Shown piece by piece: positions 1 through 31,610 of a DNA stretch of 52,849 nt. This DNA is from a virus (taxonomy: Duplodnaviria > Heunggongvirae > Uroviricota > Caudoviricetes). Position 1 is the first letter of the stretch. The number at the start of each line of letters is the position of its first letter. The DNA is taken from IMG/VR virus record IMGVR_UViG_3300045988_151019; one strand, 5' to 3'. The position numbers and the translations under genes are program-made. A model generated the notes under the pieces. The model was not told where the DNA came from, made no database searches, and was given only the letters and a program-made list of their open reading frames with translations.

Positions 1-518
1 CCATCCGAGATAACACCTTCGTAATACTCACGCTGCTCGTTGAGTTTTGATTTTGCGGCTTCCAGCGCCGCAACCAATTCGTCTACAGTTCCGGCAGCTT
101 GCAGTGCGTAATCGGTAATAGACATCTCATGATCAATTTCAGTACCGTTCTCATTAGTTGAGGTGATAGCAAAAAAATCAGAGTCGATTTCGTTATCAGC
201 TAAGTGGCGTAGCGTATCGGCAACAAGCTGACCGTTTTCGATTAACAGCTTCCCTACCGTTAGCGCAATATCCTCGTTCTCCTGGTCGCGAGATTTGATG
301 TATTGCTGGTTTCTTTCCCGTTCATCCAGTAGCGCCAGCACGGTTTCTGGTCCGGCCAGAATTTTGAAGGCGTTGAGCGCATCAATATCAACACCGCTAT
401 CTTTAAGTTCCTGCTCGCTTATCAGATCATCATCAACTGGCAACATTAACAGGCGTTCCATTGCCGGAATTGCACGCTCTGCCGCCTCACGCAGTGCCTG
501 ATAGTTAATTTTGGTCAT
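1..518 (-). CDS. Ea22-like modular phage protein, N-terminal part (gene runs off window start)
   Basis: ATG at 518-516, one nt after upstream stop; N-terminus MTKINYQALREAAE matches paralogue at 1783-2481; reading frame open to position 1. Confidence 0.45.
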   Translation of the reverse strand, partial: MTKINYQALREAAERAIPAMERLLMLPVDDDLISEQELKDSGVDIDALNAFKILAGPETVLALLDERERNQQYIKSRDQENEDIALTVGKLLIENGQLVADTLRHLADNEIDSDFFAITSTNENGTEIDHEMSITDYALQAAGTVDELVAALEAAKSKLNEQREYYEGVISD

Positions 519-519
519 A

Positions 520-819
520 TCACATCACCCTGAATCCGTTGCATTTACGTAAAAAATCGCAGATATAGCCCTTCATTTTTTCGTGCCAATCTCGATCATT
601 CCCATTGCACCAACCATCAGGTGGAGTCCAGTTTTCTATCAGAGCAGCCATTTTCTTTGCTTTCGCCGGAGTAGCTGTTGCGGTATCGCAGTAATGACGA
701 GTGTCAACCAACGTATCCATACCATCGATATCAAGTACGCAAAACCATGTGTGATTCGGCATTTCAACAGATGGTATTTGTTGCCCACGTCGACGTTTAT
801 CAATAAGACATACAGTCAC
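520..819 (-). CDS. hypothetical Cys-rich protein (99 aa)
   Basis: ORF track; GTG start overlaps upstream stop (GTGA), AGGAGG 7 nt upstream inside junction cassette. Confidence 0.4.
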   Translation of the reverse strand: MTVCLIDKRRRGQQIPSVEMPNHTWFCVLDIDGMDTLVDTRHYCDTATATPAKAKKMAALIENWTPPDGWCNGNDRDWHEKMKGYICDFLRKCNGFRVM

Positions 820-1499
820 TGGTTGCCTCCTTTGCGAAGCTGTTCAGCAATACTTACGCATATCTCTGCGCCTCTAATCAGCCCCGGAACGTTCTTGTTT
901 GGCCCAACTTCACCATCGACAAAATCAATCATCGCGTTACGAGCCATATCCACGCCCTGCGCACGCACTTCAGCCAGGAAAGCATCGGTGGCTGGCGTTT
1001 CCCGTGAACGGTAAGACCAAACAATGTCGTCTGTTTCACTGGGTTCTTCATGAGAGCAATTTGGGCAGACAGCAGTACAACCAGCATGATCTTCTATGAG
1101 CATCTTCAGCCACGAGTTCTCCTCCGCCAGCGTCACGCGACTGGCCTCCAGTTCTGCTACGCGCTGTTTTGCAGCATCCAGTTCAATCGACAATTTTTCC
1201 AACTGCTCTTGATGCTTCTTGTATTCCTGATATGCGTGCCAAGACTGACCTTTGCGCACACTATCAGTGATATCAGTAATCTGTTCTGGTGTTAGCGTGG
1301 TCAGTGGCTGTGATGGGAAAATAAGCACTTTCCCGGAATCCCAATCAAAACCAGCGTGAATTGACTGAACCTCAACTGAAGGTGTTGAACCAATGCTGCC
1401 AGGCGAATGAACAACGATTGTTACATCCATATCGCGACGATGGCTGTGGTTGTTGGACAAAATACGATTCACCAACTCAGAAAATTTGGAAAATTTCAT
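816..1499 (-). CDS. Ea22-like modular protein (227 aa)
   Basis: ORF track; C-terminal module ETPATDAFLAEVRAQG...IAEQLRKGGNQ shared with 1783-2481; coiled-coil middle; CxxC motif. Confidence 0.5.
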   Translation of the reverse strand: MKFSKFSELVNRILSNNHSHRRDMDVTIVVHSPGSIGSTPSVEVQSIHAGFDWDSGKVLIFPSQPLTTLTPEQITDITDSVRKGQSWHAYQEYKKHQEQLEKLSIELDAAKQRVAELEASRVTLAEENSWLKMLIEDHAGCTAVCPNCSHEEPSETDDIVWSYRSRETPATDAFLAEVRAQGVDMARNAMIDFVDGEVGPNKNVPGLIRGAEICVSIAEQLRKGGNQ

Positions 1500-1819
1500 G
1501 CTGATTCCCCTTTCTCTGCTCTCTCCTGTCGGAACATCACTATCATCAGGTCGCCTTTTGTCGCTATCCTGGCTGTTGTACCTGGTTCAATGCGGCTAAG
1601 CTCAAATGCGTCATAGAACGCTTCTAATGCCTTCTGGCGTAGTTCCTGTTTGCGCCGTTTTTTCCACTGTTTTAGGAAAATGGAACCCAGCCATCGCCAT
1701 GTACGGGACATGATGTAAAGCCAACCGAGAAGTGCCAGACCGGTATTTAGGAGCGTATCGATCGTTATTGTCGTGTCGATATTCACTGGCTGCTTCCTTT
1801 GCGAATCTGTTCCGCCCAT
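1496..1819 (-). CDS. small membrane protein (likely GTG start near 1786)
   Basis: ORF track; hydrophobic helix GLALLGWLYIM; ATGA overlap with downstream gene; SD-like AAGGAAG before GTG. Confidence 0.35.
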   Translation of the reverse strand: MGGTDSQRKQPVNIDTTITIDTLLNTGLALLGWLYIMSRTWRWLGSIFLKQWKKRRKQELRQKALEAFYDAFELSRIEPGTTARIATKGDLMIVMFRQERAEKGESA

Positions 1820-2481
1820 TCTTCAAGGGATTTCTCCGCATATTCACCAGACAGGCCATCAATCGGATGCGCTTCATTAGCCAACTCTTCTTTCGCTGAC
1901 AAAATCATGCGTGTAACGTCGAAAACTTCACGCAAAGACTTATTGATAAATCCGTGATTGAACGCAGCAGCAAGACGGCTGGCGGTATAGTTAATCCCCT
2001 CGTTGCGTGCTTCCGCACGAATTTCAGCCAGAAAAGCATCGGTAGCTGGAGTTTCGCTGTGGTGCAGGGCATCGTTGATAATCATTGCAGCAACTCCGGC
2101 CTGCCCTGCATCCGTGACCGACACATGCTCAAGAGTTACGGCCATTGCGTGTTTCAGCCCGGCGTTCTCTGCCACCAGCGCCGCGAGATTAGTCTCAAGC
2201 TCTGCAATTCGACACATAGCATCAATATTTGTGTCCTCCAGGCACTTAATTTCACCAAGCAGCTCCAGTGCAACCTTTGGGTTGAACGCGGCAACATGAC
2301 GAGCGTTGTTCTCTGCATTTTTCTGTCCATCAAAGCCGGTCCATTTGATAACGTCTTCACATCGTTCATCACCGGGCGTGTGCACCGCATAAGTACCAGT
2401 ATCCGTCGAAATAAATGCGACCCATTCGTCTGGTGTTGCCTTTTCTGCCGCCTCACGCAGTACCTGATAGTTAATTGTCAT
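1783..2481 (-). CDS. Ea22-like modular protein (about 232 aa)
   Basis: ORF track 1783-2490; ATG at 2481 overlaps upstream stop (ATGA); N-terminus MTINYQVLREAAEKATPDEW; C-terminus EQIRKGSSQ. Confidence 0.5.
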   Translation of the reverse strand: MTINYQVLREAAEKATPDEWVAFISTDTGTYAVHTPGDERCEDVIKWTGFDGQKNAENNARHVAAFNPKVALELLGEIKCLEDTNIDAMCRIAELETNLAALVAENAGLKHAMAVTLEHVSVTDAGQAGVAAMIINDALHHSETPATDAFLAEIRAEARNEGINYTASRLAAAFNHGFINKSLREVFDVTRMILSAKEELANEAHPIDGLSGEYAEKSLEEWAEQIRKGSSQ

Positions 2482-3158
2482 TCTCGCCATCCTTCACAGT
2501 TGTAATCACTACAGCCTTCAAAATCATATGGGCTGTACTGCCAGGTAATTTTTCCGCAATGCGGACAATTCCAACGCACCTTCCCGCTTCGCGACTTCTT
2601 TCTTCTGTTCTGCTTTTTCAACCAGTCAGGCATGACCAAACCTGCGCCCTGAACCATTGTTCTGCGGTTAAAGTTATTGATATTGAACGTCCGGCGCTTT
2701 GCTGAATCAGCAATGGAAAATGGCAACCAAACTATTCCTGGTTCGTTTTTGTTGGCGACGCTAAAGATGGTCGCTTTACTGAAGTCATCTGTTGGCAATC
2801 CACCGTGTTGAAGCCAGTAAACATCGTTGCCGTTCCAGCTACCTTTTTTGTAGGCCACATACGCAGTGCAATCTGACTCAATCAGGCTTTCTGTAGGGAT
2901 GTACTGGCAATCAACGTGCCACACAGCCATTGCATCCACGCTATCAGCGCAAACAGGCTGATCGATATCTCGTCCACAATTCCAGGCTTTTTGGGCTTCT
3001 TCCAGCGTGTAAACATGAGCGCGATCGATATCAGAACTGTAACCATTGCCGTTATGGCAATGGAATGAGGCGTTATTACCCACAGTTTCACGCAAGCACA
3101 TCATGTAAAAACGGTTACTCACTGGTTGCCTCCTTGGCGGAGTTGCGCTGCGATGCAT
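2478..3158 (-). CDS. zinc-ribbon protein (C-terminal CPHCG...CSDYNC); probable true start GTG at 3122
   Basis: ORF track; AGGAGG then GTG inside junction cassette; Cys/His-rich. Confidence 0.4.
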   Translation of the reverse strand: MHRSATPPRRQPVSNRFYMMCLRETVGNNASFHCHNGNGYSSDIDRAHVYTLEEAQKAWNCGRDIDQPVCADSVDAMAVWHVDCQYIPTESLIESDCTAYVAYKKGSWNGNDVYWLQHGGLPTDDFSKATIFSVANKNEPGIVWLPFSIADSAKRRTFNINNFNRRTMVQGAGLVMPDWLKKQNRRKKSRSGKVRWNCPHCGKITWQYSPYDFEGCSDYNCEGWRE

Positions 3159-3358
3159 GAAAAAAAAGACTCCCGAGTGTGACAGTTAAGAGCTGGTGCG
3201 AACGCCGCGTTAAGAACGGCGGCATCACAGCCGTCATCAATATAGAGCGCAATTTTTTTCTCCAGGCGCGCTTTGGCTTCCTGCAGCTGCATACCCCGGC
3301 ACGCACGCGGGATATAATCAGCAATTTGAGCGATAGCTTTTTCGTTCTGTTTAAACAT
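3119..3358 (-). CDS. small protein carrying the Ea22-like C-terminal tail (AAQLRQGGNQ); possible remnant module
   Basis: ORF track; third copy of junction cassette at its 3' end. Confidence 0.4.
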   Translation of the reverse strand: MFKQNEKAIAQIADYIPRACRGMQLQEAKARLEKKIALYIDDGCDAAVLNAAFAPALNCHTRESFFSCIAAQLRQGGNQ

Positions 3359-3554
3359 GCTTCACCTCGATAGGCTTGATGGTGTCTAACAGCAGTCGAC
3401 GGCGCGTATTTTCTGCAAAGTGGCGGCGTCCGGTATCTTTGTGGTAAAACTCATTTTTGCCGACGACCCACATCCGCTCTGTTTGGTGCAGTTTTTTTAC
3501 CTTCGGGCCATCTTTGGTGATCACGGTACCGGTATGGGTTTTTACGATTGTCAT
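3351..3554 (-). CDS. hypothetical small basic protein (67 aa)
   Basis: ORF track; ATGA overlap with upstream PAPS-reductase-like gene. Confidence 0.35.
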   Translation of the reverse strand: MTIVKTHTGTVITKDGPKVKKLHQTERMWVVGKNEFYHKDTGRRHFAENTRRRLLLDTIKPIEVKHV

Positions 3555-4429
3555 TCCACTACCTCTTCGAATTTCAACTCCAATTGGTCACCCCAGATTT
3601 CACATGATTCGGAACACGAACCAGTATCAAACCGCTTGGCCAGCACCATCGCCTGATACAAATTTCTGTAGTCACTGTCGGCATACATTCTGGCAATCCC
3701 GTCAAGCGTCAGGTGGCCACGGTACATAACGTCTTTACCTGTTCTGCGATGACCATCCCTGACGTGTTTGCCTGTAACCAGTTCATTAAAAACCCGCATC
3801 AGACCTGGTTCGTCTTTACATGCAAGCCCCAGCTTTTGCGTTGACTTTTTGATGCAAAAAACACAGTTCCCGAGGTGCTCCGGGATTTGCAAATCAAAAG
3901 GTTGTTTTCGCCACCACCGGATAACATCCGACTTATCAAAATCTGACAGTTCGGCAAGATACCGGACGCCCGGTTTCGGTTTCAGCCTACGGGGTTCGTC
4001 CGCACGAATACCGAGCCATGTGATGTAATTCCCTCGCCCAAAATGGTCATCGCAATATTTCGTGAAAGGGGTGAGTTTTAGCCTGTCGGTACAGAACGCG
4101 CCGCCGATGTATGGCGTACCGTACTTTTTAACCATGTCCATAAACGGTTTAAGCACCGGCATTCGCGTCTGAATATCCTTTGGTTCCCATTCCGTATAAC
4201 CATTTGGCTGCCCAAGTTCTGGATTTATATCGACCTGCAACACCGTTAGCGGTACGTTCCAGAACTTCACAACCTCACGAATAAAGCGATACGTCAGAGG
4301 ATGTTCACAGCCGGTATCCATAAAAATGAAATGGACGCTAGCGCCAGCTTTTCGCTGTGCTTCCATCAGATGAACGAGATAAGCCGATGTTCGTCCACCT
4401 GAAAAGCTGACGACTTGATGCATACTCAC
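3551..4429 (-). CDS. PAPS reductase-like (PP-loop ATP pyrophosphatase family) protein
   Basis: N-terminal SFSGGRTSAY PP-loop motif; C-terminal Cys cluster (NCVFC, CSESC); 292 aa. Confidence 0.7.
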   Translation of the reverse strand: MSMHQVVSFSGGRTSAYLVHLMEAQRKAGASVHFIFMDTGCEHPLTYRFIREVVKFWNVPLTVLQVDINPELGQPNGYTEWEPKDIQTRMPVLKPFMDMVKKYGTPYIGGAFCTDRLKLTPFTKYCDDHFGRGNYITWLGIRADEPRRLKPKPGVRYLAELSDFDKSDVIRWWRKQPFDLQIPEHLGNCVFCIKKSTQKLGLACKDEPGLMRVFNELVTGKHVRDGHRRTGKDVMYRGHLTLDGIARMYADSDYRNLYQAMVLAKRFDTGSCSESCEIWGDQLELKFEEVVE

Positions 4430-4432
4430 GGT

Positions 4433-5011
4433 TTATTCCTGAATGCGCTTAAACTCGATTACCCATACCAACGGGTTAGATAGCCAGTTATCCTGCCCGT
4501 AAATACTGCGCCAGATATCACCAAAACCAACGCGATAAACAGCTTCAGATGGCGTAATCTTGTACGTCGCCGGAGTTGCGCCTTCTGCTTTAGCATCTGC
4601 CTCGCTCATGTCATGCAGCCGTTCCACACGCACGTCGGTAATTTCCAGAAGAATGCGCGATGCCCAGCGCGGCATGTGAATTGATGGCGTCCACTTTTCT
4701 GATACTGGTTTATTACAAACCTCGACCGGAACCCGGTGCGTTTGTTCTGTCCAGGAGTTACGCACGCTTGCGCGATAAACCAGCGTTGCGACGTCCGTCG
4801 CTTTGCCATGTACCCGGTAGGTTTCGCGAACCCAAATACGATCGCCCGGTTGACCATATGGACAATGCTTAGCAAGCAACTCTGCGGCCACTGCCCGTCC
4901 ATAGAATTTTTCTTCAACAATCCTGCGAGTCTGTGTTTTATTCCCGCCAAGAATTGCCCGGACCATCTCATCGTTGAAAATCATGCCGCGCTCTTTCACT
5001 TCGCCTTTCAT
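4433..5011 (-). CDS. ASCH-domain protein
   Basis: ILGGNKTQTRR motif typical of ASCH/PUA-like fold; 4 nt after upstream gene; GGGGGA SD. Confidence 0.55.
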   Translation of the reverse strand: MKGEVKERGMIFNDEMVRAILGGNKTQTRRIVEEKFYGRAVAAELLAKHCPYGQPGDRIWVRETYRVHGKATDVATLVYRASVRNSWTEQTHRVPVEVCNKPVSEKWTPSIHMPRWASRILLEITDVRVERLHDMSEADAKAEGATPATYKITPSEAVYRVGFGDIWRSIYGQDNWLSNPLVWVIEFKRIQE

Positions 5012-23660: not shown

Positions 23661-24562
23661 TGCTTAGCCTCTCCACCAAGGGCATTTACCAGAGCATCAA
23701 CCAGGCACGAAATTTCACTGGTCAACAGGAAGAAATCTGCGTCCAGTCGCTGCGCAACATCTTCACTATCAATATCAGAGTTCTGCTCAAGCAATTCATC
23801 CGCAAATTTGACGCTGGTAAGGCTGAAGTTATGGTCCAGTGTAAATTTAATGCGGTTCTGCCAGTCGAGTGCCAACTTAGTAACGAGCTTGCCAGCTTCC
23901 AGGTGTGTGGAAATTTCATCGCTTCCCAAATCCTGCTTTTTCACTCGGGCAATACCGCCATCCTCAAGCACTGCCTTAAGTTCTGCCGCATCCCCCATTT
24001 GAAATCCCTGTGGAGCACTACCATCACGTACCCAGTCGGTCAGCGTTAATTCAATGGGATTTTCAACACTTAGGGGAACAACAGGAAGAGAACCCAGAGA
24101 TTTACGCATAAGCGCGAGCATATCCTCTGCCTGCCGCGCGCTGGCATTGATATAGATACGTTTAGTTGAACCGTCGTAGATCGCCTGGATAACAGAAAAC
24201 TTTGAAAAAGCCCGTGGCAGAAGAGAATGCAGAACTTCGTCTTTCAGGGAGTCCTTCTCTGTTTTCTTCAGTTTACGCGCTTGTTCTTGCTCGAGTTTTT
24301 CAATTTTTTCTTGAATAGCTCGCTGGATAACCGGCGGGGGAAGGATTTTTGTTTCGCGCTTTGCTTCAACAAGGATAAAACCATTTCCATGCATAGCGAT
24401 AACTTCGGAATTATCACCAAATGGAGATACAAAACCGAACTTGGCCATATCCTGACTACCGCATGGCGTGAAAAGGATCATTTTCTTTTTATCTTCTAAG
24501 TCGGTCAGATCCGCTTCACGAGAAAGTTTATAAATAGTAATGTTTTTCCAGTGCTTAAACAT
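23657..24562 (-). CDS. hrdC: RdgC-like recombination-associated protein (start [13 protein letters not shown])
   Basis: Near full-length similarity to E. coli RdgC as recalled ([31 protein letters not shown]); ORF track 23657-24676. Confidence 0.8.
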
Positions 24563-24839
24563 GTTGTAACCCTTGAATATCAACCACAGAAAGCTCGTTT
24601 TTGTAGAAAAAGGCCAGGTTGAGGCACCCCCTAGTTTGAGCGTATGAGCTGGGACCAATTTCGTTCTTCCAGACAAATGGCTTCAAATCCGTACGGCGAA
24701 GCATAAAAACGCGATTTGTTCCGCTCTGATTCCCAATGAGGCAAAAGCCTTCTTTCACCTTGATAGCCTGCAAGTTGTCGAGTTCACCGCTGGTTACACG
24801 GCTATCGAACTCTTTGCGGCTTATTAGCTCCATCTGCAT
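24555..24839 (-). CDS. hypothetical protein upstream of rdgC-like gene
   Basis: ORF track 24555-24911; GGAG 7 nt before ATG at 24839; stop overlaps hrdC start. Confidence 0.4.
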
Positions 24840-24910
24840 CTGACGACTCCAAACAAATACCCATTGAAGGGCGATGGCTGAATGGTACCGAAAACACGAC
24901 ATAAAAAACA

Positions 24911-24927
24911 ATATTTATTAGAGCAAT
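24911..24927 (-). promoter_or_regulatory. C1-type operator motif (plus strand ATATTTATTAGAGCAAT)
   Basis: 16/17 consensus match in divergent intergenic region. Confidence 0.55.
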
Positions 24928-25007
24928 CATGCAATAGTTAACACCATATAGACCACAAGTAACCTAAGTTAAAATAACGAAAACCAGAGCAAATAATTGG
25001 TGATGAC

Positions 25008-25292
25008 GTGGCAAGTATTGCAACAAAAGACAGCATTTGTTCGGGGCACGGAGGATTCCCATCCAGGCCTCCTGTAGAGAGTGAACCACTACTTAAAGTC
25101 AACGGAGTCGAAGTGTTAGTTGATGGTAAGCAATATGCACAGCATACCGATGGAAACAGTACGCACGGTGGGCAAGCTATATCAACCAGGGCATGGTTTA
25201 CCGTCAATGGTAAAGGGATCGTATGCGTTGGTGACCCTGTTTCATGCGGATCTACCGTAGCATCCGGAGACGGCCTGGTTCAGGTAAGTTAG
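25008..25292 (+). CDS. PAAR-like spike-tip protein candidate (GTG start)
   Basis: 94 aa; SGHGG, VNGVEVLVDG and VNGKGIVCVGDPVSCG motifs resemble PAAR repeats. Confidence 0.5.
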   Translation: MASIATKDSICSGHGGFPSRPPVESEPLLKVNGVEVLVDGKQYAQHTDGNSTHGGQAISTRAWFTVNGKGIVCVGDPVSCGSTVASGDGLVQVS

Positions 25293-25300
25293 GAGATATC

Positions 25301-26089
25301 ATGCTGGAAAAAGACTACCAGTTATCCGCATATAAAAAATTGGCCGCCGCCGGTGGGATGAAAACACCTGGTGCCATAACATCGGCACGAAACAGTGCTA
25401 ACACAGCAAAACTGCTTGCAGAAGAATTGACCGGATTAATTCTGGATACAATTGTCTATCCCGACACTATTACCAGCTATGTTTCAACGATCAGAACAAC
25501 CACAACCGGCTTAACGAACATTGGAGAACTGGCAACTAAGCACGCGGACCTGTTGGCTGGTTATGCAGATCTGTCAATGCTGCTTCAACTCGATATTGGT
25601 TGGGATGTTTACTGCCGTGCTAATGAGCGAGAAGTTTCAGAACTGCCGATCTCTATTGCCATTGGTGATGTGAATATTACTAAATCGCTTGAGGACGCTG
25701 TTAACGCGCTTAATACATCAAGTTTAGTCGCTGCTATGGGGGAGATTAACCAGACCCTTAACACTGGCTCAGGAAGCTCGTCAGGCTCTGGTTCAGGCGG
25801 CGGCACTGCCACTCCCCCACCAGCACTAACAGAAGAGCAAATTGAATCTCTGAAAGTAGCAACTGAACAGTTTGGGGTTGTTTTCAACCAGACAACAGCG
25901 CCCACAACTGCGTTACAACAGCAGTATGAACGAGCGAATGAAAGCGCCAACGTAGCCATAACTGCTTATAACCATGCTATCGGTACCGCTCTTGCGGAAG
26001 CATCAGCAAATAAGGTCAGCACAGCCAGCGCAGTTGCCGCTTTGGTTCCTGATTCTGTTCTTGATGAATTAAACAAAGCGGCACAGTAA
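25301..26089 (+). CDS. hypothetical protein with internal Gly/Ser linker (SGSSSGSGSGGG)
   Basis: ATG at 25301 with AGGAGA SD; ORF track frame 25244-26089. Confidence 0.45.
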   Translation: MLEKDYQLSAYKKLAAAGGMKTPGAITSARNSANTAKLLAEELTGLILDTIVYPDTITSYVSTIRTTTTGLTNIGELATKHADLLAGYADLSMLLQLDIGWDVYCRANEREVSELPISIAIGDVNITKSLEDAVNALNTSSLVAAMGEINQTLNTGSGSSSGSGSGGGTATPPPALTEEQIESLKVATEQFGVVFNQTTAPTTALQQQYERANESANVAITAYNHAIGTALAEASANKVSTASAVAALVPDSVLDELNKAAQ

Positions 26090-26128
26090 CAAAGGACTTC
26101 ATTGATAATTTTTCTTCAGGAGGAAGAC

Positions 26129-26551
26129 ATGTCATTCTTTTCTACGTTAAAAACAGCTTTGTCTTTGAAGGAGAAACTTGCTGCTACTGGTGTTCTTGTT
26201 CTGATTTGCGCACTTGTTGGTGCTGGGTTTGCATGGGAACGTCATCAGCTAAAGCAAGCCATGGAGAAAATTGGCAGTCTTGATCAGGCTGTTAAGGAAC
26301 GTGATAAGTCAATAATGGATCTTAACCAGACCATTGAGACGATGAACAAAGCAGAGCAACATTTTCACAGCCAGGAAGTGAAAAATGAATCAGAACAAGC
26401 CAAATATGCTGACAGGCAAATGGAACGAAAAGCTGAAGTTCAGAAACAACTGGTTGCGGCGGGTAATGTTCGCCAGCGCATTCCTGCTGACACTCAGCGG
26501 TTGCTCCGGGAGTCGATCAGCGAATTTAACGCCGACGCCGACAAAGGTTAA
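26129..26551 (+). CDS. Rz-like i-spanin candidate
   Basis: AGGAGGAAG SD then ATG; N-terminal TM helix ATGVLVLICALVGAGFAW; coiled-coil periplasmic domain. Confidence 0.5.
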   Translation: MSFFSTLKTALSLKEKLAATGVLVLICALVGAGFAWERHQLKQAMEKIGSLDQAVKERDKSIMDLNQTIETMNKAEQHFHSQEVKNESEQAKYADRQMERKAEVQKQLVAAGNVRQRIPADTQRLLRESISEFNADADKG

Positions 26552-26717
26552 CCACCCTGCCCCCAAAAGTGCATTTATGTGCAGAATGCCAGAGTTTAGC
26601 AGTGAATATTTTGATGATCTGCCAGCGTATATCCTCGATACAGAAACGATGCTGAAGGGGATTAACAGGAAGAATCGCAACGTTAATGATTACAACCGTG
26701 CTATCAGCGGTAACTAA
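26385..26717 (+). CDS. Rz1-like o-spanin lipoprotein candidate, overlapping the i-spanin in another frame
   Basis: Lipobox LTLSGC, Pro/Thr-rich stretch TPTPTKVNHPAPK, one extra Cys; start codon uncertain (26385, 26406 or 26466). Confidence 0.45.
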   Translation: MNQNKPNMLTGKWNEKLKFRNNWLRRVMFASAFLLTLSGCSGSRSANLTPTPTKVNHPAPKSAFMCRMPEFSSEYFDDLPAYILDTETMLKGINRKNRNVNDYNRAISGN

Positions 26718-26728
26718 AAGGAAAAACT

Positions 26729-27088
26729 ATGTCCGATATGGAAATTGAAAAAGAGATTCTGGCCAAAGGCAAAACAGCACCACGCCTGACTCCTGATCAC
26801 ATCGAGAGTGTGATTGCCGAAGAGCATTATTTCACAGCTTTTGACGGCATTCGCGCTGCGCACGAAGGCGTTCGTGAGGTGCTGTCTGTTCATCCCTCTA
26901 CGCGTAGCCTGACCATCTGTGTCTTGGTGCTGTGCAATGGATTCATTGTTACCGGGGAAAGCGCCTGTGCCAGCCCTGAAAATTTCGACGCGGAGATTGG
27001 CCGTAAGGTGGCCCGTAAGAACGCCATTGAGAAAATCTGGCCGCTGGAAGGTTATCTGCTGAAGCAAAAGCTCAGCGAGCAGATTTAA
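26729..27088 (+). CDS. hypothetical protein (119 aa)
   Basis: ORF track. Confidence 0.45.
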   Translation: MSDMEIEKEILAKGKTAPRLTPDHIESVIAEEHYFTAFDGIRAAHEGVREVLSVHPSTRSLTICVLVLCNGFIVTGESACASPENFDAEIGRKVARKNAIEKIWPLEGYLLKQKLSEQI

Positions 27089-27158
27089 TCAACTGTAGAA
27101 ATCGTAATATCAACACTCATGACTTTACTTTGGCAGGAAGCCACTAAGGACAAACAAC

Positions 27159-27560
27159 ATGTTTGCGGTTAAACAAGAAATAAACAACGCTACTTCTTTG
27201 TTCGAAATTGAGAGTATTACCGTTGGATATCCTGGGTCAGATCAATTTAAACAGGCGTTCGAGATTGCTGAAGAACTGGGTATCAAAACGCCTGATGCGA
27301 TTGAATATATCCCTGTTGCGTACGAAGATGAGGAGATGACAAAGGCAATCGGGGAAGAGCAAACTTTGAGTACAGAGCGTAAGGATGTACAGCGGGATGA
27401 CTGTATCGCCGTGATTTGCTCTGGGGTTGCTTCTGAAATGTTCCCCGACCTCCCTGCCATAGGAGGTGTTGGTTATCAATTCCTCTACAAAGGTGATACG
27501 TTACGCATCTATACAAGTAGTTTGTTGATCGAAGAAGTAGGTACGGAAAACGACAACTAA
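27159..27560 (+). CDS. hypothetical acidic protein (133 aa)
   Basis: ORF track. Confidence 0.45.
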   Translation: MFAVKQEINNATSLFEIESITVGYPGSDQFKQAFEIAEELGIKTPDAIEYIPVAYEDEEMTKAIGEEQTLSTERKDVQRDDCIAVICSGVASEMFPDLPAIGGVGYQFLYKGDTLRIYTSSLLIEEVGTENDN

Positions 27561-27609
27561 TTCGCTTCAACTCTTCACAGAAATCGGTCCTCAGTGGCCG
27601 GTTTTTCAC

Positions 27610-27687
27610 TTATCCACATTATCCACTGGGTAGATCCAATAATCAGGTCCATACAGATCCCAATTAGATCCATATAGATCCCTGATC
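27610..27687 (+). promoter_or_regulatory. plasmid origin oriR core: tandem DnaA boxes and five clustered GATC sites
   Basis: DnaA boxes TTATCCACA at 27610 and TTATCCACT at 27619; GATC at 27633, 27656, 27667, 27677, 27684. Confidence 0.8.
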
Positions 27688-27726
27688 GTTGCAGGCCGCG
27701 CCACGTCTGGCTTAGAAGTGTATCGC

Positions 27727-27828
27727 GATGTGTGCTGGAGGGAAAACGATGTGTGCTGGAGGGATAAAAATGTGTGCTGACGGGTTGCTAATGTGTGCTG
27801 GCGGGATATAGGATGTGTGCTGACGGGA
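27727..27828 (+). repeat. incC: five direct iterons (GATGTGTGCTGGAGGGA-type) upstream of repA
   Basis: Copies at 27727, 27748, 27768, 27788, 27812, about 21 bp apart. Confidence 0.85.
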
Positions 27829-27886
27829 AAGCCTGGGTAGTTATCACCACTTATAAAAACTATCCACACAATTCGGAAAAAGTAAT

Positions 27887-28747
27887 ATGAATCAATCATT
27901 TATCTCCGATATTCTTTACGCAGACATTGAAAGTAAGGCAAAAGAACTAACAGTTAATTCAAACAACACTGTGCAGCCTGTAGCGTTGATGCGCTTGGGG
28001 GTATTCGTGCCGAAGCCATCAAAGAGCAAAGGAGAAAGTAAAGAGATTGATGCCACCAAAGCGTTTTCCCAGCTGGAGATAGCTAAAGCCGAGGGTTACG
28101 ATGATATTAAAATCACCGGTCCTCGACTCGATATGGATACTGATTTCAAAACGTGGATCGGTGTCATCTACGCGTTCAGCAAATACGGCTTGTCCTCAAA
28201 CACCATCCAGTTATCGTTTCAGGAATTCGCTAAAGCCTGTGGTTTCCCCTCAAAACGTCTGGATGCGAAACTGCGTTTAACCATTCATGAATCACTTGGA
28301 CGCTTGCGTAACAAGGGTATCGCTTTTAAGCGCGGAAAAGATGCTAAAGGCGGCTATCAGACTGGTCTGCTGAAGGTCGGGCGTTTTGATGCTGACCTTG
28401 ATCTGATAGAGCTGGAGGCTGATTCGAAGTTGTGGGAGCTGTTCCAGCTTGATTATCGCGTTCTGTTGCAACACCACGCCTTGCGTGCCCTTCCGAAGAA
28501 AGAAGCTGCACAAGCCATTTACACTTTCATCGAAAGCCTTCCGCAGAACCCGTTGCCGCTATCGTTCGCGCGAATCCGTGAGCGCCTGGCTTTGCAGTCA
28601 GCTGTTGGCGAGCAAAACCGTATCATTAAGAAAGCGATAGAACAGCTTAAAACAATCGGCTATCTCGACTGTTCAATTGAGAAGAAAGGCCGGGAAAGTT
28701 TTGTAATCGTCCATTCTCGCAATCCAAAGCTGAAACTCCCCGAATAA
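27887..28747 (+). CDS. repA: iteron-binding plasmid replication initiator RepA
   Basis: 286 aa, flanked by iteron arrays on both sides; sequence matches my recollection of P1 RepA. Confidence 0.9.
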   Translation: MNQSFISDILYADIESKAKELTVNSNNTVQPVALMRLGVFVPKPSKSKGESKEIDATKAFSQLEIAKAEGYDDIKITGPRLDMDTDFKTWIGVIYAFSKYGLSSNTIQLSFQEFAKACGFPSKRLDAKLRLTIHESLGRLRNKGIAFKRGKDAKGGYQTGLLKVGRFDADLDLIELEADSKLWELFQLDYRVLLQHHALRALPKKEAAQAIYTFIESLPQNPLPLSFARIRERLALQSAVGEQNRIIKKAIEQLKTIGYLDCSIEKKGRESFVIVHSRNPKLKLPE

Positions 28748-29304: not shown

Positions 29305-30501
29305 ATGAGTGATTCCAGCCAGCTTCACAAGGTTGCTCAAAGAGCAAACAGAATGCTCAATGTTCTGACTGAACAAGTACAGTTGCAAAAGGATGAGCTA
29401 CACGCGAACGAGTTTTACCAGGTCTATGCGAAAGCGGCACTGGCAAAATTGCCTCTACTGACTCGAGCGAACGTTGACTATGCCGTAAGTGAAATGGAAG
29501 AAAAGGGCTATGTTTTCGATAAACGCCCTGCTGGCTCTTCAATGAAATATGCGATGTCAATTCAGAACATCATTGACATATATGAACATCGCGGAGTGCC
29601 AAAATACCGGGATCGCTACAGCGAAGCGTATGTGATTTTCATCTCCAATCTTAAAGGCGGTGTGTCAAAAACTGTATCGACGGTTTCTCTGGCGCATGCA
29701 ATGCGTGCCCACCCTCATCTTCTGATGGAAGATTTAAGGATTCTGGTTATTGACCTTGATCCTCAATCTTCAGCAACGATGTTTTTAAGCCATAAACACT
29801 CTATTGGTATCGTAAACGCAACATCTGCACAGGCTATGTTGCAGAATGTAAGCCGTGAAGAGCTGTTAGAGGAGTTTATTGTTCCTTCTGTTGTACCTGG
29901 GGTTGACGTTATGCCTGCGTCGATTGACGATGCCTTTATTGCATCCGATTGGAGAGAGCTGTGCAATGAGCATCTACCGGGTCAGAACATCCATGCTGTC
30001 CTGAAAGAAAATGTGATTGATAAGCTGAAGAGCGATTATGACTTTATCCTCGTTGATAGTGGTCCTCACCTTGACGCCTTCCTGAAAAATGCTTTGGCCT
30101 CGGCCAATATACTGTTTACACCTCTGCCGCCAGCAACTGTCGATTTCCACTCATCGCTTAAATACGTTGCCCGCCTTCCTGAGTTGGTGAAACTCATTTC
30201 GGATGAAGGCTGCGAGTGCCAGCTTGCGACTAACATTGGTTTTATGTCCAAGTTGAGTAACAAGGCAGATCATAAGTATTGCCATAGCTTGGCTAAAGAA
30301 GTGTTCGGTGGGGATATGCTCGATGTCGTCCTCCCTCGCCTTGACGGTTTTGAACGTTGCGGCGAGTCTTTTGACACTGTTATTTCAGCTAACCCGGCAA
30401 CGTATGTTGGTAGTGCTGATGCATTGAAGAACGCGCGAATTGCCGCGGAAGATTTTGCTAAAGCAGTTTTTGACCGTATTGAATTTATCAGATCTAACTG
30501 A
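29305..30501 (+). CDS. parA: partition ATPase ParA (type Ia, with N-terminal DNA-binding extension)
   Basis: 398 aa; deviant Walker A KGGVSKT; Walker B ILVIDLDPQ. Confidence 0.9.
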   Translation: MSDSSQLHKVAQRANRMLNVLTEQVQLQKDELHANEFYQVYAKAALAKLPLLTRANVDYAVSEMEEKGYVFDKRPAGSSMKYAMSIQNIIDIYEHRGVPKYRDRYSEAYVIFISNLKGGVSKTVSTVSLAHAMRAHPHLLMEDLRILVIDLDPQSSATMFLSHKHSIGIVNATSAQAMLQNVSREELLEEFIVPSVVPGVDVMPASIDDAFIASDWRELCNEHLPGQNIHAVLKENVIDKLKSDYDFILVDSGPHLDAFLKNALASANILFTPLPPATVDFHSSLKYVARLPELVKLISDEGCECQLATNIGFMSKLSNKADHKYCHSLAKEVFGGDMLDVVLPRLDGFERCGESFDTVISANPATYVGSADALKNARIAAEDFAKAVFDRIEFIRSN

Positions 30502-30517
30502 GGAGTAAGAAACCCCC

Positions 30518-31519
30518 ATGTCAAAGAAAAACAGACCAACAATTGGGCGAACCCTTAATCCTTCAATATTAAGCGGATTTGATAGTTCTTCAGCCTCTGG
30601 CGATCGAGTCGAGCAGGTATTCAAGTTATCAACTGGTCGCCAGGCCACATTTATTGAAGAGGTAATACCTCCGAACCAGGTAGAAAGCGATACCTTTGTT
30701 GATCAGCATAACAACGGGCGTGACCAGGCATCTCTTACGCCAAAATCATTAAAAAGTATCCGAAGCACTATTAAGCATCAGCAATTTTACCCTGCAATAG
30801 GTGTTAGACGGGCTACAGGGAAAATTGAAATTTTGGATGGTTCCCGGCGTCGAGCTTCTGCCATCTTAGAGAACGTAGGGTTGCGGGTTTTAGTCACGGA
30901 CCAGGAGATCAGCGTTCAGGAAGCGCAAAATTTAGCGAAAGACGTTCAGACAGCATTGCAGCACAGCATTCGAGAAATAGGTCTGCGTTTGATGCGAATG
31001 AAAAATGATGGGATGAGTCAGAAGGATATTGCAGCCAAGGAAGGGCTGTCTCAGGCGAAAGTCACGCGTGCTCTCCAGGCAGCGAGTGCTCCGGAAGAAT
31101 TAGTCGCCCTTTTCCCTGTGCAGTCGGAATTAACCTTTTCGGACTACAAAACGCTTTGTGCTGTTGGCGACGAAATGGGGAACAAGAATTTAGAGTTTGA
31201 TCAGCTTATTCAAAACATATCCCCGGAAATAAACGACATCTTATCCATTGAAGAAATGGCCGAAGATGAAGTTAAAAATAAAATCCTGCGCTTGATAACA
31301 AAGGAAGCCTCACTACTCACGGATAAAGGTTCTAAAGATAAGTCCGTAGTTACTGAATTATGGAAATTTGAGGACAAGGATCGCTTTGCAAGGAAGCGCG
31401 TGAAAGGCCGTGCATTTTCTTATGAGTTTAATCGACTTTCAAAAGAGCTACAGGAAGAACTCGACAGGATGATTGGGCATATCCTTAGAAAGAGCCTCGA
31501 TAAAAAGCCGAAGCCTTAA
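30518..31519 (+). CDS. parB: centromere-binding partition protein ParB
   Basis: 333 aa; directly downstream of parA; ParB-family box (ILDGSRRRAS); parS follows. Confidence 0.9.
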   Translation: MSKKNRPTIGRTLNPSILSGFDSSSASGDRVEQVFKLSTGRQATFIEEVIPPNQVESDTFVDQHNNGRDQASLTPKSLKSIRSTIKHQQFYPAIGVRRATGKIEILDGSRRRASAILENVGLRVLVTDQEISVQEAQNLAKDVQTALQHSIREIGLRLMRMKNDGMSQKDIAAKEGLSQAKVTRALQAASAPEELVALFPVQSELTFSDYKTLCAVGDEMGNKNLEFDQLIQNISPEINDILSIEEMAEDEVKNKILRLITKEASLLTDKGSKDKSVVTELWKFEDKDRFARKRVKGRAFSYEFNRLSKELQEELDRMIGHILRKSLDKKPKP

Positions 31520-31522
31520 ACT

Positions 31523-31610
31523 TTCGCCATTCAAATTTCACTATTAACCTACTGTTTTTAAAGTAAATCACTCTAAAATTTCAAGGTGAAATCGCCACGA
31601 TTTCACCTTG
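31523..31610 (+). promoter_or_regulatory. parS centromere (box B hexamers TCGCCA and box A heptamers ATTTCAC/ATTTCAA around an A/T-rich bend site)
   Basis: TCGCCA at 31524; ATTTCAC at 31535; ATTTCAAGGTGAAATCGCCACGATTTCAC at 31577-31605. Confidence 0.7.

What the first reader, a model, noticed from the sequence alone, without database searches (positions are those of the whole stretch)
26129..26717. Overlapping Rz/Rz1-like spanin pair located beside the plasmid origin
An N-terminal-TM coiled-coil protein (26129-26551) has a lipoprotein ORF with lipobox LSGC and a Pro/Thr-rich stretch embedded in its +1 frame and extending beyond its stop. This is the overlapped spanin architecture, here separated from any holin or endolysin within the window.
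Basis: partly seen in the sequence, partly recalled or inferred. Interest (0 to 1): 0.4.

Follow-up and report, generated by a model that had tools for sequence, protein, structure and literature searches.

The report
Phage P1 spanin genes ppfA/mlp

Summary
The window is a P1-like phage-plasmid. ORF 26129-26551 is P1 ppfA (139/140 aa identical). The +1-frame ORF 26385-26717 is P1 mlp (107/110 aa identical). The two overlap by 167 nt.

P1 gp064/gp063 are listed as an "overlapped" two-component spanin in the Kongari 2018 spanin table. A 2022 P1 lysis paper says they lie in an operon unlinked to lyz and lydA/B, and credits Summer 2007 for identifying them.

- **Anatomy:** an N-terminal membrane helix followed by a long helical domain in PpfA, and a lipobox LSGC (Cys40, Ser at +2) in Mlp.
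- **The mlp frame is truly coding:** in four ~60%-identical relatives, changed codons in the mlp-only part are 80 synonymous against 42 non-synonymous.
- **Homology to the phage P2 pair LysB/LysC:** shared PHROGs, and Mlp vs LysC gives BLASTP E 4e-8.
- **Location:** no holin or endolysin lies in the window, and the plasmid origin iterons start about 1 kb downstream.

One small refinement concerns the start codon. Constraint on the mlp frame begins only at codon 24. That codon is a conserved start (TTG 26454; ATG in the relatives) and aligns with Met1 of LysC.

Spanin function has not been tested experimentally.

The parts
26129..26551 (+). i-spanin gene (P1 ppfA orthologue), 140 aa
   Evidence: 139/140 aa identical to P1 PpfA. 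phrog_89 'Rz-like spanin' E 1.2e-25 over residues 21-139, the same PHROG as P2 LysB.
26118..26123 (+). Shine-Dalgarno AGGAGG of ppfA
   Evidence: Read from the sequence. The same site is given for P1 in Kongari Table S1.
26177..26236 (+). N-terminal transmembrane segment of PpfA (about residues 17-36), preceded by K8, K14 and K16
   Evidence: Kyte-Doolittle 19-residue maximum 2.35 at residues 17-35. Helical in the AF2 model. The N-in/C-out topology is inferred from the positive-inside rule.
26385..26717 (+). o-spanin gene as annotated (P1 mlp orthologue), 110 aa, +1 frame, 167-nt overlap with ppfA
   Evidence: 107/110 aa identical to P1 Mlp. phrog_30284 E 3e-76 and phrog_456 E 1.3e-5. BLASTP to P2 LysC 37% identity, E 4e-8. 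In the mlp-only part, changed codons are 80 synonymous vs 42 non-synonymous in this frame.
26373..26378 (+). Shine-Dalgarno-like AGGAAG, 6 nt before ATG 26385
   Evidence: It is AGGAGG in the four relatives, but it also encodes the conserved Q-E-V of PpfA.
26454..26456 (+). Alternative start of the o-spanin (TTG, Mlp codon 24). It would give a 17-residue signal peptide, fM-RRVMFASAFLLTLSG|C.
   Evidence: ATG at the same position in all four relatives. It aligns with Met1 of P2 LysC. Mlp codons 1-23 show no constraint: 1 synonymous vs 64 non-synonymous changed codons. No Shine-Dalgarno is visible upstream.
26493..26504 (+). Lipobox L37-S38-G39-C40. Cys40 would be the lipidated first residue of the mature protein. 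Ser at +2 predicts outer-membrane sorting.
   Evidence: Variants in relatives are LSAC, LNGC and LNAC.
26580..26582 (+). Cys66 of Mlp, the only periplasmic cysteine of the pair (candidate for an intermolecular disulfide)
   Evidence: Conserved in all four relatives and aligned with a Cys of P2 LysC. Kongari Table S1 counts 1 periplasmic Cys in the o-spanin and 0 in the i-spanin.
25008..26089 (+). Context: upfC (PAAR spike tip, 25008-25292) and upfB (25244-26089), co-directional and directly upstream. Probably the same transcription unit.
   Evidence: P1 annotation. PAAR hit. UpfC and UpfB are baseplate spike/tripod proteins in the P1 virion cryo-EM study (PMC12810830). No + strand terminator-like site between them and ppfA.

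Best explanation
The two ORFs are the two-component spanin of a P1-like phage-plasmid.

PpfA (i-spanin) would be anchored in the inner membrane by one N-terminal helix and would project a roughly 104-residue, mostly helical domain into the periplasm.

Mlp (o-spanin) would be exported, lipidated on Cys40, cleaved by signal peptidase II and sorted by Lol to the inner leaflet of the outer membrane.

The two periplasmic domains would bind each other and form a bridge across the periplasm that is caged by the peptidoglycan. Once the holins LydA/C/D and the SAR endolysin Lyz, encoded elsewhere on the genome, have degraded the wall, the complexes would be free to move and would destroy the outer membrane. 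By the model worked out for lambda Rz/Rz1, this happens by fusing it with the inner membrane. That is the last step of lysis.

Shown here: gene anatomy, both frames coding, orthology to P1 ppfA/mlp, and distant homology to P2 LysB/LysC.

Inferred: topology, lipidation, complex formation, timing of expression (probably by read-through from the virion genes upfC and upfB just upstream) and the membrane-fusion step.
For: - Near-identity to P1 PpfA and Mlp.
- P1 gp064/gp063 are listed as an overlapped two-component spanin in PMC6139136 Table S1. They are named as the P1 spanin genes in PMC9025707, which cites Summer 2007.
- Both proteins hit 'Rz-like spanin' PHROGs. These are the same PHROGs that P2 LysB (phrog_89) and LysC (phrog_456, phrog_30284) hit. 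In P2 those genes follow the holin and endolysin genes directly.
- Mlp vs LysC: BLASTP E 4e-8, with the signal peptide, the Pro-rich stretch and the internal Cys aligned.
- Sub-threshold NCBIfam hits point the same way: phage_LysB and P2_Rz1.
- Membrane helix, lipobox and Ser at +2. Helical model with a break at residues 111-119.
- Both frames are conserved. The +1 ORF is intact and of equal length in four relatives from Cronobacter, Salmonella and Klebsiella plasmid prophages. Nucleotide identity is 77-80% in the overlap against 60-62% in the ppfA-only part. Changed codons in the mlp-only part are 80 synonymous vs 42 non-synonymous in the mlp frame, against 9 vs 127 in the ppfA frame.
Against: - No experiment has shown spanin activity for PpfA/Mlp (PMC9025707).
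- CRISPRi knock-down of mlp or ppfA did not abolish P1 plaque formation: EOP about 0.2 and about 1.2, both scored non-essential (PMC10695390). Spanin defects are known to be mild on plates or in shaken cultures.
- The genes are not next to any holin or endolysin gene.
- The P1 reference annotation shows no late promoter upstream, only two weak predicted sigma-70 promoters.
- No Pfam Rz or Rz1 hit.
- The PpfA-LysB relationship rests on the PHROG profile alone. BLASTP gives E 57 and hhalign probability 1%.
- The NCBIfam scores are far below the curated cut-offs.
Confidence: 0.85

Rival explanations
1. Only ppfA is a gene. The +1-frame lipoprotein ORF is a chance open frame.
For: Alternative-frame ORFs of about 100 aa are common here. 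Gene callers usually do not call mlp. Mlp codons 1-23 show no constraint.
Against: Downstream of the ppfA stop, substitutions fall on mlp third positions: 104 of 171 differences, with changed codons 80 synonymous vs 42 non-synonymous. The ORF is intact with the same end in all relatives. Mlp is homologous to P2 LysC. Only 2 of 209 ORFs in the window carry a lipoprotein signal.
Confidence: 0.02
2. The pair is an envelope protein pair expressed from the plasmid prophage, for example for exclusion, serum resistance or envelope remodelling (like Bor or Cor), rather than a lysis device. Its position next to oriR/repA and away from the lysis genes would reflect that role.
For: It is unlinked to the lysis genes. 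Only sigma-70-type promoters are predicted in the P1 record, and no late promoter. Knock-down is tolerated. The position next to rep/par is conserved in all relatives.
Against: It is homologous to the P2 lysis-cassette pair LysB/LysC. The architecture is exactly that of an overlapped spanin. The genes directly upstream and co-directional, upfC and upfB, are virion baseplate proteins and therefore late functions. The predicted sigma-70 promoters are weak: the simple scan found none between upfB and ppfA.
Confidence: 0.06
3. The pair is a redundant or decaying spanin that no longer contributes to lysis. P1 would break the outer membrane by other means or by shear.
For: Non-essential in CRISPRi. 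The databases hold many frameshifted PpfA-Mlp fusion ORFs.
Against: Both frames are under purifying selection across about 40% protein divergence. Both frames are intact in this window and in P1, P7 and SJ46-type phages. The fusion junctions sit in short homopolymer runs, which is typical of sequencing errors.
Confidence: 0.05

Closest known systems
Phage P1 PpfA (gp064) / Mlp (gp063), the 'P1' family of overlapped two-component spanins (Summer 2007; Kongari 2018 Table S1)
   Same: Orthologous: 139/140 and 107/110 aa identical. Same 167-nt overlap, same Shine-Dalgarno sites, same neighbours upfC-upfB upstream and oriR-repA downstream.
   Different: One substitution in PpfA (I45M) and three in Mlp (S7N, V32A, M91K), none in the lipobox. 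Downstream, an extra Phage_gp49_66 gene is inserted and UpfA is only 54% identical.
Phage P2 LysB / LysC (the model overlapped spanin pair)
   Same: Same overlapped +1 architecture and similar sizes (141 and 96 aa). Same PHROGs (89; 456 and 30284). Mlp vs LysC 37% identity over 68 aa, E 4e-8, with the internal Cys conserved.
   Different: P2 lysB/lysC lie in the lysis cassette, directly after holin Y, endolysin K and lysA; the P1-type pair is unlinked. PpfA and LysB are not alignable pairwise. NCBIfam scores are below the family cut-offs. The annotated Mlp has a 23-residue N-terminal extension that LysC lacks.
Phage lambda Rz / Rz1
   Same: Same functional class and same predicted topology: type II inner-membrane protein plus outer-membrane lipoprotein, with the lipoprotein gene in the +1 frame.
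   Different: In lambda, Rz1 is fully embedded in Rz and the pair follows S and R. There is no detectable sequence relationship: no Pfam Rz or Rz1 hit and the best-matching PHROGs differ (13 and 3198); only a weak hit to phrog_214 is common to PpfA and lambda Rz. By the count in Kongari Table S1, PpfA has no periplasmic cysteine. From my own knowledge, lambda Rz has two.

Membership tests
Two-component spanin (functional class; criteria of Summer 2007 / Kongari 2018) | i-spanin with a single N-terminal transmembrane domain, N-in/C-out | tested here: met
   Hydropathy maximum 2.35 at residues 17-35, no other hydrophobic segment, Lys8/14/16 on the N-terminal side. The orientation itself is inferred.
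Two-component spanin (functional class; criteria of Summer 2007 / Kongari 2018) | Periplasmic domain of the i-spanin mostly alpha-helical or coiled-coil, with two helices separated by a linker | tested here: met
   AF2 model: helices 13-110 and 120-137 with a break at 111-119, mean pLDDT 67.6. Heptad a/d enrichment reached by 7 of 500 shuffles (a crude test).
Two-component spanin (functional class; criteria of Summer 2007 / Kongari 2018) | o-spanin with a lipoprotein signal (lipobox Cys) and no inner-membrane retention residue (Asp) at +2 | tested here: met
   LSGC with Cys40, then Ser-Gly. Kongari Table S1 reports LipoP cleavage at residue 39 for P1 Mlp, no Prosite hit, and the remark 'too long signal sequence'.
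Two-component spanin (functional class; criteria of Summer 2007 / Kongari 2018) | Small, proline-rich mature o-spanin | tested here: met
   Mature protein of 71 aa with 6 Pro. 7 of the first 22 residues are Pro or Thr.
Two-component spanin (functional class; criteria of Summer 2007 / Kongari 2018) | o-spanin gene embedded in, overlapping or directly following the i-spanin gene | tested here: met
   +1 frame, 167-nt overlap, extends 166 nt beyond the ppfA stop: the 'overlapped' class.
Two-component spanin (functional class; criteria of Summer 2007 / Kongari 2018) | Physical complex of the two periplasmic domains that spans the periplasm | not testable with these tools
   Needs pull-down or cross-linking. 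The structure tool takes single chains only.
Two-component spanin (functional class; criteria of Summer 2007 / Kongari 2018) | Required for outer-membrane disruption at lysis; complements lambda Rz/Rz1 nulls | not testable with these tools
   [quoted passage not shown] CRISPRi knock-downs were scored non-essential for plaques.
Two-component spanin (functional class; criteria of Summer 2007 / Kongari 2018) | Location in a lysis cassette next to holin and endolysin genes (usual, but not defining) | tested here: not met
   No lyz or lydA-E homologue in the 52.8-kb window and none in the non-P1 stretches. This is a known P1 trait.
P1 PpfA/Mlp orthologous group | High full-length identity and conserved synteny | tested here: met
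   99% and 97% identity. The order upfC-upfB-ppfA-mlp ... oriR-repA-parA is kept.
P2 LysB / LysC sequence families (NCBIfam TIGR03495, NF038368; PHROG 89, 456) | Score above the curated NCBIfam cut-offs | tested here: not met
   19.0 bits against a cut-off of 92.75, and 14.9 against 27.
P2 LysB / LysC sequence families (NCBIfam TIGR03495, NF038368; PHROG 89, 456) | Significant match to the broader PHROG profiles that contain LysB and LysC | tested here: met
   PpfA to phrog_89 E 1.2e-25. Mlp to phrog_456 E 1.3e-5. LysB and LysC hit the same PHROGs. Mlp vs LysC BLASTP E 4e-8.
Lambda Rz (Pfam PF03245) / Rz1 (Pfam PF06085; accession numbers from my own knowledge) | Match to the Pfam models | tested here: not met
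   No such hit at E up to 1. Lambda Rz and Rz1 best match other PHROGs, 13 and 3198; phrog_214 is a weak hit shared by PpfA and lambda Rz.

The most novel reading that the evidence does not exclude
The P1-type spanin pair lies away from the lysis cassette, has no annotated late promoter and tolerates knock-down. It might therefore be expressed on a different schedule, for example at a low level from the plasmid prophage, and serve an envelope function other than, or in addition to, terminal lysis.

A smaller reading that the evidence does not exclude: the real o-spanin starts at the conserved TTG/ATG at codon 24 (26454), and the annotated 39-residue signal peptide is an annotation artefact.
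Probability: 0.05. Interest if true: 0.45.

Novelty: already known. Interest (0 to 1): 0.08.

Why it matters
It matters little beyond correct annotation. The case shows that overlapped o-spanin genes are still routinely missed or truncated by automatic gene callers. The closest record, ON470617, annotates no mlp. MH422554 calls only a 46-aa fragment 'Rz1'. In the protein collection, the mlp search returned 28 clusters against 76 for ppfA. The start-codon observation and the lack of any experimental test of P1 spanin function are small, tractable gaps for people who work on P1 lysis.

Tried and rejected
- **Pfam:** only sub-threshold coiled-coil noise for PpfA and nothing for Mlp.
- **PpfA vs P2 LysB:** pairwise BLASTP (E 57) and hhalign of a 19-sequence PpfA alignment against LysB (probability 1%) are both non-significant. 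The alignment is shallow (Neff 1.6). The i-spanin link to LysB therefore rests on phrog_89 only.
- **PDB sequence search for both proteins:** nothing meaningful.
- **Rfam on 24500-28000:** no RNA family.
- **Promoter and terminator scan:** counts do not exceed the shuffles. No promoter-like site between upfB and ppfA, and one just upstream of upfC at 24969-24997.
- **P1 late-promoter motif:** I tried to derive it from the reference annotation but retrieved only one pair, LP26/LPpmgL. That is too few for a scan, so the promoter serving ppfA-mlp stays undetermined.
- **The P1 genome paper (Lobocka 2004):** not held in the library.
- **Homologue searches:** both returned only the P1-like clade, down to about 59% identity. 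No intermediate towards P2 was recovered.
- **Antisense ORF 26390-26680:** rejected as a gene, because it carries an internal stop in all four relatives.
- **Not used:** fold search on the PpfA model, because a single long helix gives meaningless matches.

Full report
**What is in the sequence**

ORF 26129-26551 (+) encodes 140 aa and is preceded by AGGAGG at 26118-26123. ORF 26385-26717 (+) encodes 110 aa in the +1 frame. It overlaps the first ORF by 167 nt and runs 166 nt beyond its stop.

The first protein has one strongly hydrophobic segment, residues 17-35 (Kyte-Doolittle 2.35). Three lysines lie on its N-terminal side. The rest of the protein is charged and free of cysteine.

An AlphaFold2 model built from 19 homologues shows helices 13-110 and 120-137 with a break at 111-119. 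Confidence is modest, mean pLDDT 67.6. A crude heptad test gave an a/d hydrophobic enrichment that 7 of 500 shuffles reached.

The second protein has the lipobox L-S-G-C with Cys40, followed by Ser. Its mature part is 71 residues and begins with a Pro/Thr-rich stretch.

**Identity of the window and of the genes**

Megablast places the region in P1-like phages of the genus Punavirus. The window as a whole is collinear with P1 from about bplA/sit to pmgT.

The two proteins are 139/140 and 107/110 identical to P1 PpfA (gp064) and Mlp (gp063). RefSeq calls mlp an 'Rz-like spanin', and other records call the pair Rz and Rz1.

The spanin survey of Kongari et al. 2018 lists P1 gp064/gp063 as an overlapped two-component spanin in its own 'P1' family. 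It gives the same start sites and adds the remark 'Too long signal sequence' (PMC6139136 Table S1).

Bednarek et al. [quoted passage not shown] 2007) and have not been verified experimentally (PMC9025707). That paper swaps the i- and o- labels.

**Is the embedded frame really coding?**

ORF length alone proves nothing here. I fetched four relatives with about 60% PpfA identity, from Cronobacter-, Salmonella- and Klebsiella-type plasmid prophages. All keep the gene order PAAR(upfC)-upfB-ppfA-...-rep-par.

In all four the +1 ORF is open and ends at the same relative position. All carry a lipobox-like motif: LSAC, LNGC or LNAC.

| Segment | Nucleotide identity to the window |
|---|---|
| ppfA-only | 60-62% |
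| overlap | 77-80% |
| mlp-only | 70-78% |

In the mlp-only part, 104 of 171 differences fall on mlp third positions. Changed codons there are 80 synonymous vs 42 non-synonymous in the mlp frame, against 9 vs 127 in the ppfA frame. The four relatives are close to each other (81-90% identity), so this amounts to roughly one or two independent comparisons. The signal is nevertheless unambiguous.

Only 2 of 209 ORFs of at least 60 codons in the window have a lipoprotein-signal-like N-terminus. The other one is antisense to a real gene. The antisense ORF 26390-26680 is broken in all relatives.

**Start of the o-spanin**

Two starts are possible.

- **ATG 26385.** It has AGGAAG 6 nt upstream (AGGAGG in the relatives). 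That sequence also encodes the conserved Q-E-V of PpfA.
- **TTG 26454 (codon 24).** It is ATG in all four relatives and aligns with Met1 of P2 LysC. It would give a canonical 17-residue signal peptide. No Shine-Dalgarno is visible upstream.

Codons 1-23 of the annotated Mlp show no constraint in their own frame: 1 synonymous vs 64 non-synonymous changed codons and 29% amino-acid identity. From codon 24 onward, identity is 65-74%.

Either start gives the same mature lipoprotein. I cannot decide between them. The P1 record's own note also reports homology for 'aa 24-90'. That is the range of my LysC alignment.

**Relationship to known spanins**

- PpfA hits phrog_89 (E 1.2e-25). Mlp hits phrog_30284 (E 3e-76) and phrog_456 (E 1.3e-5). 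All are labelled Rz-like spanin.
- P2 LysB hits phrog_89. P2 LysC hits phrog_456 and phrog_30284. Lambda Rz and Rz1 best match other PHROGs, 13 and 3198; PpfA and lambda Rz share only a weak hit to phrog_214.
- Mlp and LysC align at 37% identity over 68 residues (E 4e-8), including the internal Cys.
- In P2 these genes directly follow the holin, endolysin and lysA genes. This supplies the functional link that the P1 locus itself lacks.
- NCBIfam gives only sub-threshold hits, though to exactly these two families: phage_LysB and P2_Rz1.
- PpfA and LysB are not alignable pairwise or by hhalign.
- Pfam has no Rz or Rz1 hit, and no solved structure is related.

**Surroundings**

Upstream and co-directional lie upfC (PAAR, 25008-25292) and upfB (25244-26089). 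A 2026 cryo-EM study places UpfC and UpfB at the tip of the P1 tail spike (PMC12810830). They are therefore late virion proteins.

Only 39 nt separate upfB from ppfA, and no terminator-like site lies between them. Co-transcription with late genes is plausible but inferred. The P1 record annotates only two weak sigma-70 promoters for ppfA and no late promoter.

Downstream of mlp lie a Phage_gp49_66-family ORF (26729-27088), which the P1 reference lacks, and a 54%-identical UpfA homologue (27159-27560). Then come five 21-nt-spaced RepA iterons (27727-27827), repA (27887-28747) and the incA iterons.

No P1 lysis gene and no lysis-category PHROG is found anywhere else in the window.

**Mechanism and confidence**

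By analogy with lambda Rz/Rz1, the pair should form a bridge across the periplasm that is released once the endolysin has degraded the wall. It would then disrupt the outer membrane. The lambda model is established knowledge, cited in PMC9025707 and PMC6139136.

The main evidence against full confidence is the absence of any functional test. CRISPRi also scored both genes as non-essential for plaques (PMC10695390). That result is compatible with the known mildness of spanin defects under such conditions.

I put 0.85 on a working spanin, a few percent each on a prophage-expressed envelope function and on a redundant relic, and almost nothing on a chance ORF.

**Verdict**

The feature is already known, and interest is low.

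Noticed in passing
window 26729-27088 and 27159-27560: Between mlp and oriR the window has two ORFs where the P1 reference has only upfA. One is a Phage_gp49_66-family protein (Pfam E 1e-33). The other is a UpfA homologue only 54% identical to P1 UpfA. At DNA level only vB_EcoM-813R1 matches this stretch. The ~60% relatives L005, L006 and L008 also carry the gp49_66 gene.
   Followed up: partly
database proteins P0003, P0010, P0017, P0019, P0028, P0039, P0046, P0041 (equivalent to window 26385-26551): There are at least eight distinct PpfA-Mlp 'fusion' ORFs: seven of 195 aa and one (P0041) of 193 aa. The ppfA frame switches into the mlp frame at six different points. The 195-aa ORFs each fit loss of one base in the overlap. 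The three junctions whose DNA context I read in the window lie at short homopolymer runs: A5 at 26381-26385, GGG near 26507, AAAGG near 26541. These are probably sequencing or assembly errors, possibly decay in defective prophages.
   Followed up: partly
L002 (ON470617.2) and L003 (MH422554.1), the equivalents of window 26385-26717: Automatic annotation mishandles the o-spanin. The closest record annotates no mlp at all. Another calls only the C-terminal 46 aa (starting at the internal Met65) 'outer membrane lipoprotein Rz1'. The gene calls in the four relatives either omit it or call the same 46-aa piece.
   Followed up: yes
window 24910-24927 (- strand): A C1-repressor operator (ATTGCTCTAATAAATAT, the P1 Odmt/Op68 site) lies about 80 nt upstream of upfC, in the divergent region between uhr-hrdC-dmt and upfC. 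A sigma-70-like site on the + strand at 24969-24997 lies just before upfC. Which promoter drives upfC-upfB-ppfA-mlp is not established.
   Followed up: partly
window 1-4919: The largest stretch with no nucleotide match to P1 (OP279344). It holds minus-strand ORFs, including a phosphoadenosine-phosphosulfate-reductase-like protein (3551-4429, phrog_424, E 4e-93) and two paralogous phrog_368 proteins (816-1499 and 1783-2490).
   Followed up: no
window 18594-19262 (-) and 19402-19638 (-): Another non-P1 stretch encodes a protein that matches a PHROG labelled 'lipoprotein' (phrog_200, E 2e-89) and a small membrane protein (phrog_1130). My crude lipobox screen did not flag the first one.
   Followed up: no
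window 29548-31574: The partition module differs from P1. parA is only about 65% identical at DNA level. parB (30518-31519) has no nucleotide match to P1 but is a clear ParB (phrog_1146). This suggests a different partition or incompatibility specificity.
   Followed up: no
window 26390-26680 (-): A 96-aa antisense ORF inside the spanin overlap is a chance frame. It carries an internal stop in all four relatives.
   Followed up: yes
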